Positions 26,844 through 31,635 of a stretch of DNA of 64,000 bases are shown here, in pieces (position 1 is the first letter of the stretch; each line of letters begins with the position of its first letter). Under the pieces are notes generated by a model, which was given only the letters and a program-made list of their open reading frames with translations, searched no databases and was not told the origin of the DNA. Where the stretch lies: the NCBI GenBank assembly GCA_965242505.1, contig OZ251449.1:2552184-2616183 (forward strand), given 5' to 3'. A program made the position numbers and the translations under genes. The stretch is from Alphaproteobacteria bacterium. Its GTDB lineage: Bacteria > Pseudomonadota > Alphaproteobacteria > UBA2966.

Positions 26844-27290
26844 ATGCGGGCCAAGGAAATCATGACCAGACAACTGGTCACGGCGAAACCCGAAACGCCG
26901 GTAACGGAGGTCGCGCAGTTGATGATGGAGCATCGGATCAGCGCCGTTCCGGTCGTCACGCCCGACCAGCGTCTCCTCGGGATCGTCAGCGACACCGACC
27001 TCCTGCAGCGCCGGGAAGTCGGTATGCAGAGGCTTCCGCGGTCCTGGTGGCTGGCGCTCTTCAATTCAAAGGATCGGCTCACCAACAGCGTCGACAGGAC
27101 GGAAAGCAATCTCGCCGAGAACATCATGACCACGCCGGCCATCTCCATCGATCAGGAAGCGACGATCGAAGACGTCGCGAGGCTGTTTCTGACGCGGAAG
27201 ATCAACCAGGCCCCGGTGGTGCATGGAGGCAAGCTCGTGGGGATCGTCAGCCGGGGCGATCTGGTGTCGGCCATCGCCCGTTCCGACTGA
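26844..27290 (+). CDS. CBS domain pair protein
   Basis: Two CBS-like units: IMTRQLVT..ISAVPVV..GIVSDTDLL and IMTTPAISI..APVVHGGKLVGIVSRGDLV. Confidence 0.8.
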   Translation: MRAKEIMTRQLVTAKPETPVTEVAQLMMEHRISAVPVVTPDQRLLGIVSDTDLLQRREVGMQRLPRSWWLALFNSKDRLTNSVDRTESNLAENIMTTPAISIDQEATIEDVARLFLTRKINQAPVVHGGKLVGIVSRGDLVSAIARSD

Positions 27291-27488
27291 TCCGGACATC
27301 TCGCGAGGGTAGCGCGCCAGAGCCTTGAGCCGGGCGATCTCGGGGCCGTCGCCGGCGGGGATTTCCATGCTCATGTCGATCAGCTCCGCGCTGCGGCGCT
27401 TGACGGCTTGGATGAAACCGCTGCCGGACGGGTTGAAGTCGAGGCCGACGCGGCGCTCGCCTTTGGTGAGTTCTCGGGTTTCGGACAT
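27066..27488 (-). pseudogene. phage-like small protein, probably 3'-truncated; only about 27300-27488 looks protein-like
   Basis: MSETRELTKGERRVGLDFNPSGSGFIQAVKRRSAELIDM..EIARLKALA. The ORF then runs antisense through the CBS gene 3' end for about 225 nt. Confidence 0.35.
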
Positions 27489-27833
27489 TCACTTCTCCTC
27501 CTTGATGGTTCGGGTTTCAAGGTCTTCGATATCCCAGGGCGCTCCGATCACGGCCTCGCCCCGGTGTCCGCGGGCGGCGAGGATGCGCAGGCCGTCGGCG
27601 ATGAGGCGTTCGCGCTCGCGGCGCAGGTAGCGCTCGCACCGGTCCCCGGCCTTGTAGGCGCCGAGGCTGCCGGGCGCGGCGCCGTCGAGCTGGTTCAGCG
27701 CCTCCGCTTCGTCCTCGTCGAGCGGGTGCGTGATGCGCTCTTCCTCCGTGAGGCCGTGGGGCGAATCCCACCACGCCGTCCCGTAGACGTGCGCCCGGCC
27801 CCACGTTCGGATGCGGATGCCCGCTCTCTTCAT
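27489..27833 (-). CDS. hypothetical protein (114 aa), island ORF
   Basis: Start MKRAGIRIRTW overlaps the upstream stop (ATGA). Its stop abuts the next ATG (TGAATG). Confidence 0.45.
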   Translation of the reverse strand: MKRAGIRIRTWGRAHVYGTAWWDSPHGLTEEERITHPLDEDEAEALNQLDGAAPGSLGAYKAGDRCERYLRRERERLIADGLRILAARGHRGEAVIGAPWDIEDLETRTIKEEK

Positions 27834-28063
27834 GATGCCACTCCCTTCCGTGGAATGTCGATGGCGTCCTCGCCTCCTTCGCAGAGGCGACGCAGTTCCT
27901 CGGCGCGGATCGGGACGAAACGATCGCCCAATGGCCGCAAGAGTTCCCGGCAGCTCTCGCACAGGCTGTCGCGGCGCAGGCGGCCGTAGGCGCCCGACCC
28001 CTCGATCTCCAGGGCCCGGCTACAGTCTCGGCATTCGATCGTGCGGATCGTCCGGAGCGTCAA
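27830..28063 (-). CDS. hypothetical zinc-ribbon-like protein (77 aa; CxxC...CxxC)
   Basis: ECRDCS....LCESC. Proposed TTG start overlaps the upstream TGA (TTGA). Confidence 0.4.
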   Translation of the reverse strand: MTLRTIRTIECRDCSRALEIEGSGAYGRLRRDSLCESCRELLRPLGDRFVPIRAEELRRLCEGGEDAIDIPRKGVAS

Positions 28064-28293
28064 TGAGTAACGCCCTTCTTCATGGCCATCTTCACCATCT
28101 CCTGCGCTTTCTCGGCAGATGAAAACCCCGTCTGGATGCCCGCCTTTCCGAGAATGGACCCGATCCGATTGAAGCACTCGGAGAACTCCTTGCGCTGTTC
28201 GTCGGAGTAGCCGCGCTCGGTCATGGCTATCTCGGCAGCCTCATTGATGAACATCTGCGTGACTTCGATCTGATCCTCTTCCGTCATGTCCAT
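28060..28293 (-). CDS. hypothetical small acidic helical protein (77 aa)
   Basis: MDMTEEDQIEVTQMFINEAAEIAMTERGYSDEQRKEF... Visibly lower G+C than its surroundings. Confidence 0.5.
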   Translation of the reverse strand: MDMTEEDQIEVTQMFINEAAEIAMTERGYSDEQRKEFSECFNRIGSILGKAGIQTGFSSAEKAQEMVKMAMKKGVTH

Positions 28294-28511
28294 TTTCTGA
28301 ACCTCGCCTTCTTGCCGTACAGTTCCGGGAAGGCGCGCCGCGCGGCGGCCTCGTATTCAGCCCTCTTGCGCTCGGGCGCTCCCCTGCATATGGTGCGTGT
28401 GGACGGTCCGGTGTCAGTCTGCGACGGATCCACCACGTGCCCTTCGGGGCCGTGCCAAACGGTGGGAGAAGGAGCTTCCGGACCGTCGCCGTTTCCTTTC
28501 CGGTCACTCAT
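28284..28511 (-). CDS. hypothetical protein (75 aa)
   Basis: Start MSDRKGNGDG overlaps the MuF-fragment stop by 8 nt (ATGAGTGA). Confidence 0.4.
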   Translation of the reverse strand: MSDRKGNGDGPEAPSPTVWHGPEGHVVDPSQTDTGPSTRTICRGAPERKRAEYEAAARRAFPELYGKKARFRKWT

Positions 28512-29373
28512 CCATCTCTCCCTCAATGAGCGCATGGCGCGGATCACGCAGATCTCTCGCCTTGACGTACCCCGCGGTTCGGATGGCGTTGATCTGGCCC
28601 TTTCGGCGCGTGGCGAAGTTGACGCGGACGGCGATCTTGCCGCGCCGTTCGTCGTCAGCCGGATCGAAGACGTAGAGGAGCGTCGGCCCTTCCGGCCGCG
28701 TCTCGAACAGGACGGCGCGGGGTTCGGCGAGTATCTCGGGGAGGCGGTCGAGGTCGGCGGCGTCGAGGGCCTGCCCGCGGGCGCGCTTGGGGTCGCGGGT
28801 CATGTGTCCGAGGGCGCGGCGGTCCACGGTGACGGCGACCGTCGCGGGCGGGTCCCCGCGTTCGGCGAGGGCCTTGACGGTCTTTGGCGAGAGCGCGCCC
28901 ACCTCGAAGCGGTTCTGCAAGTCGGGTCCGGGTTCGCTGCGGCGCCAGCGGCGCCAGTTCTCGCCCAGGGCCCGGAGGACGGACGGCCGCCGGAGCATCG
29001 GGCGGATGGCGGCGGCGGCGATGGAGGGGGCGGTCTCGATGGAGGAGAGGATGGCCTGGCGCACGGCGTCGCCGGACTGAAGACTGGCTCCGGGGGCGTA
29101 GTCGAAGCCCGGGTCGATGCCCTCCGGGACGGTGACGGTGCGCCTGGCGCGCCCGCGCCCCACGGTGCGGGTGACCATGCGGTCGGGCGGGGCCTCGTCG
29201 GGTCCGTCCTTCCCGGCGCGCCGGAGGCCGTCGTCGTCGAGGGCCTCGACGTAGCACTTGCAGCCCCATCCGTTGGGCGGGTAGTGGGCGTCCCACCAGG
29301 GATGGTCGTGGCGGAGCACGAGGCCGTCCCACGCGAGGTGATCGGGGCGCGCGTCGACGGAGGCCGGTCGCCG
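28504..29373 (-). pseudogene. 5'-truncated phage MuF-like (minor head/morphogenesis) gene retaining a C-terminal toxin-like extension
   Basis: Frame is open from the stop at 29374. It reads ..HLAWDGLVLRHDHPWWDAHYPPNGWGCKCYV (end of the MuF domain) and VPEGIDPGFDYAPG. A tail of about 150 aa follows, with ALGHMTRDPKRARGQ..LPEILAEP..LLYVF..KIAVRVNF. Confidence 0.55.
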
Positions 29374-29412
29374 TCACGGCCCTCTGCCTCGCGGGGTGGG
29401 CGCTCGCCCGGT

Positions 29413-29526
29413 TCAGTCCAGGAACGGGGCGATGAGCGCGGCGAACAGGACGAAGAGGAAGATGCCGGCGTACATGACGGCCGCCGGCGCCATGATCAAC
29501 CCGATGAACCACAGTATTTCCCTCAT
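29413..29526 (-). CDS. possible 37-aa hydrophobic peptide (below the ORF-track cutoff)
   Basis: My own translation: MREILWFIGLIMAPAAVMYAGIFLFVLFAALIAPFLD, followed by TGA. Confidence 0.25.
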   Translation of the reverse strand: MREILWFIGLIMAPAAVMYAGIFLFVLFAALIAPFLD

Positions 29527-29715: not shown

Positions 29716-29804
29716 GGAGGGGTGCCGGAGTGGCCGAACGGGGCGGTCTCGAAAACCGTTGTACGCTCTGCGTACCGTGGGTTCGAATCCCACCCCCTCC
29801 GCCA
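29716..29804 (+). tRNA. tRNA-Ser (anticodon CGA), CCA encoded
   Basis: Acceptor GGAGGGG/CCCCTCC. Anticodon loop CTCGAAA. Long variable arm GTACGC-TCT-GCGTAC. T arm GTGGGTTCGAATCCCAC. Confidence 0.9.
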
Positions 29805-29875: not shown

Positions 29876-30751
29876 TCAAAGAAGGTAGGCGATCAGGAAC
29901 GGCAACGTCAGAAACGATATCGCCGTCGAGACCACGACGCCGCCCGCGACGTCGGACGGACGGTTGTCGTACCGCTGAGCGAACAGGAAGTTGTAGACGG
30001 CCACCGGCATCGCGCACTGGAGTACGAGCACGCCGCGCGCGACGCCCTCGAAGTCGAGCAACCCCGCCAGCGACAGGCCCAACGGGAAGCCGAGGCCCAC
30101 ACGGAAGACGCCGATCAACGTCGCGCGCCCCATGTCGGCTACCCGTAACCGGGCCAGGGCGACCCCAAGCGTGATCAGGATCGCCGGAATCGTGAAGCCC
30201 CCGATCAACCGTGTCGTATTGGCAAGCCACAGGGGCGGCTCGGTCCCGGCGGCGAGAAACGCCACTCCGGCCAGCGCGGCCCAGATCAGCGGCGTCCGCA
30301 GCAGCCGCGCGGGAGATATCTCGCCCGAAGCGAGCCAGATCCCGAGCGTGAAGTTCCCGAGCGACGTCACGGTAAAGAAGGTGACGCCCAGCGCCAACCC
30401 TTCGCCGCCGAACGCGAACAGGCAGAGGGGCAGCCCCACGTTGCCCGAATTCGGAAACATCAGGGAGGGGAGAAAGGCGCGGACCGGTTGCCGCGCCGCG
30501 AACAGGACCGCGCCGCCCACCGCCGAGAGGAGGACGATGGACATCAACGAGGCCAGCGCCATGCTTGCGACCGCGTCGAGGTCGACGCCGAATTCCGTCA
30601 GCGTCGAAAAGACCAGGCATGGCGTGCCGATGACCAGCACCAGCGATGTCAGCAACTCGGTGTTGAAGGCGGGTCCGCGCCGGGCCCAGCCGAACCCCAG
30701 GGCGGCGCCGAACATCACCGGAGCGACCACGGCGAAGGTTTCGGCGATCAC
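29876..30751 (-). CDS. AEC (auxin efflux carrier) family transporter, copy 2
   Basis: Polytopic. NSGNVGLPLCLFAFG motif. GTG start overlaps the stop of copy 1 (GTGA). Confidence 0.75.
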   Translation of the reverse strand: MIAETFAVVAPVMFGAALGFGWARRGPAFNTELLTSLVLVIGTPCLVFSTLTEFGVDLDAVASMALASLMSIVLLSAVGGAVLFAARQPVRAFLPSLMFPNSGNVGLPLCLFAFGGEGLALGVTFFTVTSLGNFTLGIWLASGEISPARLLRTPLIWAALAGVAFLAAGTEPPLWLANTTRLIGGFTIPAILITLGVALARLRVADMGRATLIGVFRVGLGFPLGLSLAGLLDFEGVARGVLVLQCAMPVAVYNFLFAQRYDNRPSDVAGGVVVSTAISFLTLPFLIAYLL

Positions 30752-31635
30752 AGCGCGTACGCCACGAGCAAGGGGAGAGTCGCGATCGACATGAAGCCCG
30801 ACACCACGACCATCGCCGCCACCTCCTGGGGACTCCGGTCGTAATACTGGGAGATGAGATAATTGATCATTCCGACCGACAGGGAGCAGTTGACGATCAG
30901 GACGCCCCGTTCCACGCCATCGAACGCGAACAGGTCCGCCGCGACGACGCCGACCGCGAATCCCATCCCCAGTCTCAACAGCGAAAGCAGAAAGGCGCGG
31001 CGGAGATTGGCGACTCTCAGCGTCGCCAACGATACGCCGAGCATGACGAGGAGCAGCGGGATCGCCAGGCCGCTGATCAGGCCGGTGGTGTTGGCGAGCC
31101 ACGCGGGCGGCTCGGTCCCGCTCGCGAGGAACGCCAACGCGCCGAGCGCGGCGTAGACCAGCGGCGTTCGGATCAGGTCCCGCGCGGTGAACCGCCCCGA
31201 CGCCACCCACACCCCCAGGGTCGCGACCATGACCGCATCGACGGTGAACCAGGCGGCGGACAGCGCCAGTCCGAGTTCGCCGAAGGCGAACAGGCATAGG
31301 GGCAGGCCGACGTTCCCCGCATTCGGATAGACCATGCCGTTGAGATAGATGGACAGCGGCAACCGCGCGGCGCGCAGCGCGAGCGCGCCGATGGCGAGGA
31401 ACGCGAGATGGGTGGCGACCGAGGCCCACGCCATATCGACGAAGACCTCGGGGTCTACGTCGACCTTGGTCAATATCGAGAAGATCAGGCACGGCATCCC
31501 GACGTTGTGAATCATGTTGGCGAGGAACCGGACGTCGAAGTCACGGCCGAGCCTGGCCCAGGCGTAACCGATCGCGATGGTGACGAGCACCGGCGCGAGC
31601 ACCGGGATCAGCTGCGCGACGACGGCTTGGTTCAT
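30748..31635 (-). CDS. AEC (auxin efflux carrier) family transporter, copy 1
   Basis: 295 aa. NAGNVGLPLCLFAFG. Paralogous to 29876..30751. Confidence 0.8.
   Translation of the reverse strand: MNQAVVAQLIPVLAPVLVTIAIGYAWARLGRDFDVRFLANMIHNVGMPCLIFSILTKVDVDPEVFVDMAWASVATHLAFLAIGALALRAARLPLSIYLNGMVYPNAGNVGLPLCLFAFGELGLALSAAWFTVDAVMVATLGVWVASGRFTARDLIRTPLVYAALGALAFLASGTEPPAWLANTTGLISGLAIPLLLVMLGVSLATLRVANLRRAFLLSLLRLGMGFAVGVVAADLFAFDGVERGVLIVNCSLSVGMINYLISQYYDRSPQEVAAMVVVSGFMSIATLPLLVAYAL

What the first reader, a model, noticed from the sequence alone, without database searches (positions are those of the whole stretch)
27489..29373. Orphaned MuF C-terminal toxin-like module followed by a chain of small ORFs
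Seen: the ORF ending at 28504 retains only the last 40 residues or so of a MuF-type head-morphogenesis domain (..HLAWDGLVLRHDHPWWDAHYPPNGWGCKCYV, VPEGIDPGFDYAPG). Its frame is closed by a stop at 29374. A C-terminal extension of about 150 aa is intact (..VDRRALGHMTRDPKRARGQALDAADLDRLPEILAEPRAVLFETRPEGPTLLYVFDP..KIAVRVNF..). Downstream on the same strand are ORFs of 75, 77, 77 and 114 aa plus a truncated fifth. They are chained by overlapping or abutting stop/start codons (ATGAGTGA, a 10-nt overlap, TTGA, ATGA, TGAATG). Established: temperate-phage MuF proteins are known carriers of polymorphic C-terminal toxin domains, including Barnase/EndoU/RelE-like nucleases, with an immunity gene next to them. 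Inference: this could be a retained toxin-CT/immunity module, analogous to orphan CdiA-CT modules, with extra uncharacterised partners. None of the small proteins is recognisable to me.
Basis: partly seen in the sequence, partly recalled or inferred. Interest (0 to 1): 0.65.

Follow-up and report, generated by a model that had tools for sequence, protein, structure and literature searches.

The report
Decayed Mu-like prophage fragment with cargo genes
This 2.1-kb stretch is a broken leftover of a Mu-type transposable phage, holding the tail end of its head protein F gene, a few small accessory genes and a cut-off anti-CBASS (acb2-like) gene; it is not shown to be a working toxin-immunity pair.

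Summary
The sequence features are real. The toxin/immunity reading is mostly not supported.

- **F-gene fragment (28504-29373, minus strand).** It aligns end to end with the last ~280 residues of Mu gp30 (F) proteins. There were 3957 hits, typically 415-450 aa long, and phage B3 ORF33 covers 97% of the fragment.
- **The "C-terminal extension".** It is the ordinary conserved part of this family and ends in the MuF-C domain. That domain has been predicted to be a phage BECR-type RNase. His190 and Thr266 are present, but no solved nuclease fold was matched.
- **Downstream gene in relatives.** In most relatives the gene after F is the morphogenesis gene G, not an immunity gene.
- **Small ORFs o3-o5.** They have Shine-Dalgarno-like motifs and coding-type codon composition. 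No homologue was found anywhere.
- **o2.** It is a degenerate remnant of a small gene.
- **The fifth ORF.** It is a 3'-truncated Acb2/Tad1-family gene that has lost a conserved Tyr and its C-terminal helix.
- **Related loci.** An orthologous metagenome locus shares the left junction but carries a different cassette. Another relic elsewhere carries a DNA methyltransferase.

Best reading: a doubly truncated relic of a Mu-like element's variable cargo region. Expression could not be tested.

The parts
28504..29373 (-). 5'-truncated Mu gp30 (F)-type minor head protein gene: 289 codons with no start codon. About 135 N-terminal residues are missing compared with stand-alone 418-aa orthologues. The closest full-length relatives are portal-MuF fusions of 915-974 aa.
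   Evidence: tblastn to phage B3 ORF33: 38.5% identity, 97% coverage, matching its residues 136-418. phrog_220 E 1.5e-39. 3957 homologues whose matches end at their C-termini. Alignment. AlphaFold model pLDDT 92.
29248..29352 (-). Tail of the Phage_Mu_F domain (fragment residues 8-42, motif HLAWDG..PWW..YPPNGWGCKC).
   Evidence: Pfam PF04233 positions 77-111 of 112, E 7.7e-06.
28507..28851 (-). MuF-C domain (PBECR-type, predicted RNase-like), fragment residues ~175-289. His190 lies in the first helix and Thr266 in the motif NAIRTAGY.
   Evidence: Pfam MuF_C E 0.013 and PBECR3 E 0.062. Domain model pLDDT 93.5 with helices followed by a five-stranded sheet. BFVD matches to a solo 165-aa phage protein (TM 0.81, E 5e-06), to a protein annotated 'Phage MuF C-terminal domain-containing protein' and to polyvalent proteins. 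His and Thr/Ser columns. Domain definition in PMC5512222.
29374..29376 (-). TGA stop that closes the fragment's frame upstream. The left junction of the relic lies here and is shared with the orthologous locus L177, apart from a 15-nt indel.
28423..28490 (-). 68-nt element just downstream of the F stop codon. It is conserved at ~88-90% nucleotide identity in L177 and L178, and homology to both loci ends exactly at 28423. Its function is unresolved.
   Evidence: No significant RNA fold (z -0.48). No Rfam hit. Absent from IMG/VR.
28284..28511 (-). o2 (75 codons): probably a degenerate remnant of a small gene. It is the counterpart of the 77-aa ORF after F in L178, but lacks about 42 internal codons. 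In L177 even its start is gone.
   Evidence: Codon-position GC is not coding-like.
28060..28293 (-). o3 (77 aa, acidic, pI 4.8, lower GC of 0.55): orphan accessory gene of unknown function.
   Evidence: Coding-type GC3. SD-like motif. No hit in Pfam, PHROGs, NCBIfam, PADLOC, phages, plasmids, IMG/VR or PDB. Absent from one contig of run X6 that joins 28062 to 28422.
27830..28063 (-). o4 (77 codons, TTG start): small protein with a C-x2-C ... C-x2-C motif, read as a zinc-ribbon-like motif from the sequence alone. Function unknown.
   Evidence: Sequence. No family hit. In run X4 this 235-nt segment is replaced by 241 unlike letters between 27821 and 28057.
27489..27833 (-). o5 (114 aa): orphan accessory gene of unknown function.
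   Evidence: GC3 0.88. SD-like GGGAG. No homologue found. The start region appears at the end of L177. Strain variants carry no stop codons, but most changes alter amino acids.
27291..27488 (-). o6: 3'-truncated Acb2/Tad1-family (cyclic-nucleotide sponge) gene, about 58 of about 80 codons. It is cut at the stop codon of the convergent CBS-domain gene. Arg replaces the Tyr/Ser of relatives in the GEYRVG motif, and the C-terminal helix is missing.
   Evidence: 12 IMG/VR relatives at 43-54% identity. 8 of 8 full-length relatives pass Pfam PF24729 (best E 2e-14), while o6 itself does not. Alignment. Acb2 residue roles from PMC10312549.
26844..27290 (+). Flanking chromosomal gene (CBS-domain-like by sequence) whose stop codon abuts the right edge of the relic.
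   Evidence: The junction is shared with contigs of runs X4 and X6.
29716..29804 (+). tRNA-Ser(CGA), 340 nt from the left edge of the relic. The relic lies on the tRNA's 5' side, so it does not look like a tRNA 3'-end integration.

Best explanation
Window 27291-29373 is a doubly truncated, decaying fragment of a Mu-like transposable phage or element.

Shown:
- The left part is the 3' two-thirds of the F (gp30) minor-head/DNA-pilot gene. It has lost its start and most of its MuF domain, and keeps the conserved middle region and the MuF-C domain.
- The right part is what remains of the element's variable accessory ('cargo') region: a degenerate small gene (o2), three orphan small genes (o3-o5) that were translationally coupled phage genes, and an acb2-like anti-CBASS sponge gene cut off at its 3' end.
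- The cargo differs between related loci.

Inferred:
- In the parental element F would have been packaged in the virion, and its MuF-C domain delivered with the DNA as an early effector.
- The cargo genes would have served the phage. One relative carries a DNA methyltransferase and this locus carries an acb2-like gene, which points to counter-defence.
- In this chromosome the piece most likely has no toxin/immunity function. The F fragment is probably not translated and o6 is dead.
- The relic has probably kept exchanging sequence with related circulating Mu-like elements by homologous recombination. That would explain its cassette mosaicism and its excess divergence.
For: Identity of the fragment:
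- It is collinear with the C-terminal ~280 aa of thousands of gp30 orthologues.
- Phage B3 ORF33 shows the same Pfam pattern.

No other Mu-like gene was found in the 64-kb window.

Both ends are truncations:
- There is a stop codon and no start at 29374.
- o6 lacks about 22 C-terminal residues and abuts the neighbouring gene's stop codon.

Context in relatives:
- F is followed by G in B3, Mu, JBD67 and most loci.
- In the nearest clade F lies close to the element's right end: L180 and L181 end 227 bp after G.
- Cargo sits between F and G. L178 reads F'-77aa-D12 methyltransferase-51aa-46aa-G' (first 27 codons)-repeats.

Mosaicism:
- The orthologous locus L177 shares the flank, the left junction and the F fragment. 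It carries a different 277/297-aa gene between 28423 and the o5 start.
- Contigs of runs X4 and X6 show swaps at the same gene boundaries.

Divergence and co-occurrence:
- dS is 0.25 in the fragment against 0.035 in the flanking gene.
- Diverged MuF copies at higher depth occur in the same samples.

Decay in a sister relic: L178 has a frameshift and has lost the His motif.
Against: - The 289-codon frame is still open, with GC3 0.90, and keeps the predicted catalytic His and Thr.
- o3-o5 carry no stop or frameshift in any strain seen.
- The relic persists in several related strains and metagenomes.
- dN/dS values (0.4-0.6 for the fragment; 0.5-2 for o4-o6 on few changes) do not separate neutral decay from weak constraint. 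The flanking housekeeping gene gives 0.52 at this low divergence.
- Expression could not be examined because no RNA run was found.
- The parental gene order (F-cargo-acb2 without G, protease and capsid genes in between) was not found in any intact element.
Confidence: 0.78

Rival explanations
1. Orphan toxin-immunity module. The MuF-C/PBECR domain would be made from an internal start and act as an RNase toxin, with one of the downstream small ORFs as its immunity protein.
For: - The MuF-C domain is predicted to be RNase-like, with His and Thr/Ser in active orthologues (PMC5512222). The fragment has both residues.
- The frame is intact.
- MuF toxins of Firmicutes phages are usually followed by small ORFs (PMC5576092).
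- In L178 a small ORF overlaps the F stop codon.
Against: - The domain is the conserved part of gp30 orthologues, not a variable toxin.
- Those phages have G, not an immunity gene, after F.
- The first downstream ORF is degenerate here and lacks a start in L177.
- The other ORFs are swapped between strains independently of the F fragment.
- No SD or start precedes the fragment.
- There is no similarity to solved BECR toxins and no PADLOC or TA-family hit.
- The His motif is deleted in the sister relic L178.
Confidence: 0.06
2. Retained, still useful cargo. The relic would survive because one or more of o3-o5 are expressed and benefit the host, for example by superinfection exclusion or regulation. 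Alternatively it serves as a chromosomal landing pad that captures cassettes from incoming Mu-like elements. In the parental phage o3-o5 would have been counter-defence genes.
For: - Intact ORFs with SD motifs and coding-type composition.
- The relic is present in several strains and metagenomes.
- Neighbours in the same cargo position include an acb2-like gene and a D12 methyltransferase.
- Cassette swaps fall at gene boundaries.
- o3 is small and acidic.
Against: - No homologue or family hit exists for o3-o5 anywhere searched.
- Most strain differences in o5 and o6 change amino acids, some radically.
- The only recognisable counter-defence gene here is truncated.
- No promoter evidence was found beyond one weak consensus match.
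Confidence: 0.15
3. The small ORFs are chance open frames in GC-rich DNA, and only the F fragment is real.
For: - The window is 65-75% GC and long spurious ORFs occur in every frame.
- o2 has no coding-type codon composition, and o4 has only a TTG start.
- There are no homologues for o2-o5.
Against: - o3, o5 and o6 show strong third-position GC bias in their own frames.
- All five starts have SD-like motifs and coupled stop/start junctions.
- o6 has clear homologues.
- Cassette boundaries in other strains coincide with the ORF boundaries.
Confidence: 0.05

Closest known systems
Mu gp30 (F) / phage B3 ORF33-type minor head protein (PHROG 220, 'minor head protein and DNA pilot')
   Same: The fragment aligns over 97% of its length with the C-terminal 283 residues of B3 ORF33. 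It has the same order of MuF domain tail, helical middle part and MuF-C domain.
   Different: - The first ~135 residues and the start codon are missing.
- It is not next to portal, terminase or G genes.
- Unlike Mu gp30 itself, it keeps the His that Iyer et al. take as catalytic.
MuF-C / PBECR domains of phage polyvalent proteins (Iyer et al. 2017, PMC5512222)
   Same: - Weak Pfam hits to MuF_C and PBECR3.
- Structural matches (probability 1.0) to phage proteins annotated as MuF C-terminal domain, nuclease and polyvalent-protein domains.
- His in the first helix and Thr near the C-terminus.
   Different: - Pfam scores are below the curated cutoffs.
- No similarity to solved BECR RNases was detected here.
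- RNase activity has not been shown for this clade.
MuF polymorphic toxins of temperate phages (Jamet et al. 2017, PMC5576092)
   Same: A MuF-family protein with a C-terminal region beyond the MuF domain, followed by small ORFs.
   Different: - Those toxins have a full MuF domain, a variable known toxin domain and a linked small immunity ORF, mostly in Firmicutes.
- This one belongs to the proteobacterial class with a conserved C-terminal extension of unknown activity (their 'Ct_MAD'-type class).
- It is truncated, and its downstream genes are not conserved with it.
Acb2 (anti-CBASS 2) cyclic-oligonucleotide sponge, e.g. Mu-like phage JBD67 orf24 (PMC10312549)
   Same: - o6 is homologous (43-54% identity) to small phage proteins that pass the Pfam Acb2_Tad1_hairpin model.
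- Mu-like phages carry acb2 in their late region.
   Different: - o6 lacks the last ~22 residues (the second helix).
- It has Arg at the conserved aromatic position of GEYRVG, so it is most likely non-functional.
- It follows small ORFs after F rather than the major head gene.
Orphan CdiA-CT/CdiI modules
   Same: A 5'-truncated gene piece that keeps a C-terminal effector-type domain, followed by small ORFs.
   Different: - No full-length parent gene lies upstream.
- No recognisable immunity gene is present.
- The effector domain is conserved rather than polymorphic.
- The origin is a phage structural gene.

Membership tests
Mu gp30 (F) minor head protein family (Pfam Phage_Mu_F + conserved C-terminal region; PHROG 220) | Significant, collinear sequence similarity to gp30 orthologues | tested here: met
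   phrog_220 E 1.5e-39. B3 ORF33 97% coverage, E 3e-46. 1420 proteins at E<=1e-10.
Mu gp30 (F) minor head protein family (Pfam Phage_Mu_F + conserved C-terminal region; PHROG 220) | Complete MuF domain and a start codon (an intact gene) | tested here: not met
   Only model positions 77-111 of 112 remain, scoring 27.1 bits against a 29.6 cutoff. A stop lies at 29374-29376 and there is no SD or start.
Mu gp30 (F) minor head protein family (Pfam Phage_Mu_F + conserved C-terminal region; PHROG 220) | Located in a packaging/head module (terminase, portal upstream; G downstream) | tested here: not met
   No other Mu-like gene in the window at E<0.01. The flanks are tRNA-Ser and a CBS-domain-like gene.
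MuF-C / PBECR predicted RNase domain | Match to Pfam MuF_C (PF18819) or a PBECR model above the curated threshold | tested here: inconclusive
   MuF_C E 0.013 (16.1 bits against 27.6). PBECR3 E 0.062 (13.7 bits against 30). B3 ORF33 is equally weak.
MuF-C / PBECR predicted RNase domain | Same fold as phage MuF-C/polyvalent-protein domains | tested here: met
   Foldseek against BFVD: TM 0.81 at E 5e-06 to a solo phage protein. Probability 1.0 to 'Phage MuF C-terminal domain-containing protein' (phi191), 'Nuclease' and polyvalent proteins. Model pLDDT 93.5.
MuF-C / PBECR predicted RNase domain | [quoted passage not shown] | tested here: met
   His190 (ALGHMTRD) and Thr266 (NAIRTAGY) align with His and Ser/Thr of orthologues. 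Mu gp30 and P0001 lack the His segment.
MuF-C / PBECR predicted RNase domain | Structural similarity to solved BECR RNases (colicin D/E5, RelE, barnase, EndoU) | tested here: not met
   Foldseek against PDB found no match at E<=0.001, with best E 0.5-0.6 to unrelated proteins. A profile against PDB sequences gave nothing.
MuF-C / PBECR predicted RNase domain | RNase activity | not testable with these tools
   Needs biochemistry.
MuF polymorphic toxin system (Jamet et al. 2017) | C-terminal domain is variable between otherwise related MuF proteins and is a known toxin domain | tested here: not met
   The same C-terminal region is conserved to the last residues in most of the 150 best hits. No known toxin Pfam family passes threshold.
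MuF polymorphic toxin system (Jamet et al. 2017) | A cognate small immunity gene immediately downstream, co-varying with the toxin domain | tested here: not met
   The downstream gene is G in most relatives. Among the closest relics the downstream content differs. o2 is degenerate.
Orphan CdiA-CT/CdiI-type module | Lies downstream of a full-length toxin locus with which it can recombine | tested here: not met
   No full-length MuF or other Mu-like gene in the 64-kb window. Diverged MuF copies do exist elsewhere in the same samples.
Acb2/Tad1 sponge family (Pfam PF24729) | Match to the Acb2_Tad1_hairpin model | tested here: inconclusive
   o6 itself has no hit. Its 8 full-length relatives all pass, with best E 2e-14, and o6 is 43-54% identical to them.
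Acb2/Tad1 sponge family (Pfam PF24729) | Complete two-helix hairpin with the ligand-binding residues (Y11, K26, R67, T74 in PaMx33 Acb2; PMC10312549) | tested here: not met
   The C-terminal helix is absent. Arg replaces the Tyr of GEYRVG. The Lys of the IK motif is kept. Correspondence to PaMx33 numbering is inferred from the motif positions and was not aligned directly.
Type II toxin-antitoxin / known defence systems | Hit to a known toxin, antitoxin or defence-protein model | tested here: not met
   No PADLOC, Pfam or NCBIfam hit for any of the six products.

The most novel reading that the evidence does not exclude
The region downstream of F in this clade of Mu-like elements may be a cassette-exchange hotspot for counter-defence genes. 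On this reading the chromosomal relic still swaps cassettes with circulating elements at fixed joints: the end of the 68-nt element at 28423, 28057-28063 and 27821-27836. The orphans o3, o4 and o5 would then be uncharacterised anti-defence or host-takeover proteins that travel with acb2 and a DNA methyltransferase. A bolder variant is that the conserved 68-nt element is the recombination or regulatory site that organises these swaps.
Probability: 0.2. Interest if true: 0.5.

Novelty: new member of a known kind. Interest (0 to 1): 0.25.

Why it matters
- **Annotation.** A 5'-truncated MuF gene with a long C-terminal region in Proteobacteria should not be read as an orphan polymorphic toxin. The region is the normal gp30 body with its MuF-C domain.
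- **Leads on Mu-like elements.** In this clade accessory genes sit between F and G, close to the right end. They include an acb2-like sponge and a DNA methyltransferase. Three orphan small proteins found in that company are reasonable candidates for counter-defence screens.
- **MuF-C function.** The domain's predicted RNase function remains untested. This clade keeps the proposed catalytic residues that Mu itself lacks, so it would suit such a test.

Tried and rejected
Tools that gave nothing or were unavailable:
Homologues came from the representatives search instead.
- The single genome-contig scan returned only two distant hits.
- Exact-sequence look-ups of o3, o5 and the CBS-like protein found nothing.

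Searches for relatives of o2-o5:
- Pfam, PHROGs, NCBIfam, PADLOC, tblastn against phages and plasmids, IMG/VR scans and PDB all gave nothing usable.
- None of 160 loci encoding MuF relatives contains them.

Ideas rejected or left unsupported:
- The 68-nt element as a structured RNA: rejected for lack of support (fold z -0.48; no Rfam hit).
- tRNA-linked integration: rejected, because the relic is on the 5' side of tRNA-Ser and Mu-type elements transpose.
- Flanking repeats as deletion scars: none convincing.
- Promoter/terminator scan: one weak promoter-like match and no terminator.
- The 77-aa ORF of L178 as a ribbon-helix-helix antitoxin-like protein: this came only from my reading of the sequence. 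Pfam and PDB searches gave no support, so it stays an unverified lead.
- dN/dS as a test of function: uninformative at this divergence.
- RNA evidence: no RNA run found.
Full report
**Observation**

On the minus strand a TGA at 29376-29374 is followed by 289 open codons ending at 28504. Residues 8-42 (HLAWDG...PWW...YPPNGWGCKC) match the last 35 positions of Pfam Phage_Mu_F.

Five further ORFs follow on the same strand:
- o2: 28284-28511
- o3: 28060-28293
- o4: 27830-28063 (TTG start)
- o5: 27489-27833
- o6: 27291-27488

Each start has a Shine-Dalgarno-like motif. Codon-position GC is strongly coding-like for the fragment, o5, o6 and o3. It is weaker for o4 and absent for o2.

**What the large fragment is**

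The whole fragment, not only its first 40 residues, is homologous to Mu gp30 (F) proteins.
- PHROG 220 ('minor head protein and DNA pilot') matches residues 7-254 at E 1.5e-39.
- tblastn against phages gives 231 records. B3 ORF33 (418 aa) is aligned over 97% of the query, to its residues 136-418.
- A full HMMER scan of 1.8 billion representatives gives 3957 hits. Most are 415-450 aa long, and their matches run to their C-termini.
- The closest full-length relatives are portal-MuF fusions of 915-974 aa.
- B3 ORF33 shows the same Pfam pattern: a MuF domain plus a weak MuF_C hit.

So the 'C-terminal extension' is the normal body of this protein family. About 135 N-terminal residues and the start codon are missing.

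**The terminal domain**

Pfam gives sub-threshold hits to MuF_C (E 0.013) and PBECR3 (E 0.062). Iyer et al. 2017 (PMC5512222) defined MuF-C as a member of the phage BECR (PBECR) predicted RNases. They noted that it is inactive in Mu gp30 itself, but likely active in orthologues with a His in the first helix and a Thr/Ser near the C-terminus. The alignment shows that the window fragment has both, His190 and Thr266, whereas Mu lacks the His segment.

AlphaFold models are confident: pLDDT 92 for the fragment and 93.5 for the domain.
- Against BFVD the domain matches a solo phage protein (TM 0.81) and proteins annotated as MuF C-terminal domain, nuclease and polyvalent proteins, all at probability 1.0.
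- Against the PDB nothing is significant, whether by fold or by profile.

The domain assignment therefore holds. The 'toxin fold' is neither confirmed nor excluded. Jamet et al. 2017 (PMC5576092) place proteobacterial MuF proteins with such extensions in a class of unknown activity, separate from the Firmicutes MuF toxins with known toxin domains and immunity ORFs.

**Downstream genes in relatives**

In Mu, B3, JBD67 and most fetched loci the next gene is G (Phage_tail_S), sometimes after a ~35-codon ORF. None of about 160 loci encoding MuF relatives holds a homologue of o2-o5. No family, phage, plasmid, IMG/VR or PDB match exists for o2-o5.

o6 is different. It has 12 IMG/VR relatives at 43-54% identity. 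Their full-length forms (73-86 aa) all pass Pfam Acb2_Tad1_hairpin. In the Mu-like contig L005, and in phage JBD67, acb2 lies between the major head and head-tail adaptor genes.

The window copy stops after ...ARLKALA and so lacks the second helix. It also has Arg where relatives have Tyr in GEYRVG. Its remaining frame runs into the antisense of a CBS-domain-like gene whose stop codon is at 27290. It is a dead gene, and the relic is truncated on this side too.

**The closest relatives and what they show**

L177 is a 3.3-kb metagenome scaffold that represents the orthologous locus.
- It is 89.6% identical to window 30808-28423. It has the same transporter gene, tRNA-Ser, 37-aa ORF and left junction, apart from a 15-nt indel.
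- Homology stops at 28423. A 277/297-aa gene follows, and the last 34 nt match the o4/o5 junction.

L178 is a second relic in a different chromosomal context, between FtsK/LolA/GATase genes and cNMP-binding/ABC genes. It consists of:
- a frameshifted F gene that has lost the His motif;
- a 77-aa ORF;
- a D12 methyltransferase;
- two small ORFs;
- the first 27 codons of G;
- three GAATCCC repeats.

L180 and L181 are two 97.7%-identical copies of a Mu-like element in one contig. Both end 227 bp after G at ...TTCACA. In this clade, therefore, F lies near the right end and accessory genes sit between F and G.

o2 is the counterpart of the 77-aa ORF of L178 with about 42 codons deleted. In L177 its start is gone.

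**Mosaicism and divergence**

- A 68-nt element (28423-28490) is ~88-90% identical in all three loci, while the F coding DNA is only 75-86% identical. Both homologies end at 28423.
- Contigs of other runs show the o4 segment replaced between 27821 and 28057, a joint from 28062 to 28422, and an indel variant inside o6.
- Between the window and L177, dS is 0.25 in the fragment (0.16 in the N part and 0.41 in the C part) against 0.035 in the flanking transporter.
- Diverged MuF copies at higher depth occur in the same samples.

I infer patchwise recombination with related elements. The mechanism is not shown.

**Function**

- No SD or start precedes the fragment.
- There is no terminator and only one weak promoter-like match.
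- No RNA run was found.
- dN/dS is uninformative at this divergence.

The best reading is a decaying fragment of a Mu-like element's F gene plus its cargo region. Toxin-immunity function is unlikely (about 6%). Some retained role for o3-o5 is possible (about 15%).

**Limits**

- The genome scan gave little.
- The organism is not identified.
- The parental gene order was not seen in an intact element.

Noticed in passing
L180:975-13691 and L181:987-13691: Two 97.7%-identical copies of a Mu-like transposable element lie in one 3.57-Mb metagenome contig. Each carries transposase, a MuB-like ATPase, Gam, GemA, gp27, terminase, a 941-aa portal-MuF fusion and G. Both end 227 bp after G at '...CGTCCGTTCACA'. 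No protease, capsid or tail genes lie to the right of G. These could be satellite-like or defective Mu relatives. The left ends were not reached.
   Followed up: partly
L179:6199-6340; L180:12826-12978 (also L181): A ~130-nt intergenic block between MuF and the next gene has strictly conserved stretches (GGCCGCCGGGACG, CGATGCAGT, ACCATCTACCGGGAG, TTACCCGGCCTACCC.GCGGCCGG). These are separated by hairpin-like segments that differ between loci. It is a candidate structured RNA or DNA site. There is no Rfam hit.
   Followed up: partly
window 28423-28490 (-): This 68-nt element after the F stop codon is more conserved than the neighbouring coding DNA in three loci, and it marks the point where homology ends. 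In phage Mu a gyrase site is annotated in the intergenic region after G. Whether this element is a comparable DNA site is pure speculation.
   Followed up: partly
window 29413-29526 (-): A 37-aa strongly hydrophobic ORF (MREILWFIGLIMAPAAVMYAGIFLFVLFAALIAPFLD) has GC3 0.92. It lies between tRNA-Ser and the relic and is conserved in L177 (83% amino-acid identity). No family hit was found.
   Followed up: partly
L178:9776-12590: A second, independent relic of the same element type sits in another chromosomal context. Its cargo includes a D12-class adenine methyltransferase. It ends with a stub of G and three GAATCCC repeats that abut the stop codon of a convergent cNMP-binding gene.
   Followed up: yes
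window 28568-29399: In runs X1 and X2 the word depth over the MuF fragment is up to about 9 times that of the flanks. Extra contigs of 80-90% identity continue into unlike sequence. Related MuF genes, probably from intact elements, therefore co-occur in the same samples.
   Followed up: partly
window 29876-31635 (-): Two adjacent genes of about 300 codons encode similar multi-pass membrane proteins, so they look like tandem paralogues. The second copy gave 40-53% tblastx identity to the first. No family search was run.
   Followed up: no
L177:2391-3284: The cassette that replaces o2'-o4 in the orthologous locus encodes a 277/297-aa Arg/Lys-rich protein with a C-x2-C ... C-x2-C motif. It gave only a weak rubredoxin-like Pfam hit (E 0.006). 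o4 in the window has a similar cysteine motif but no detectable sequence similarity to it.
   Followed up: partly
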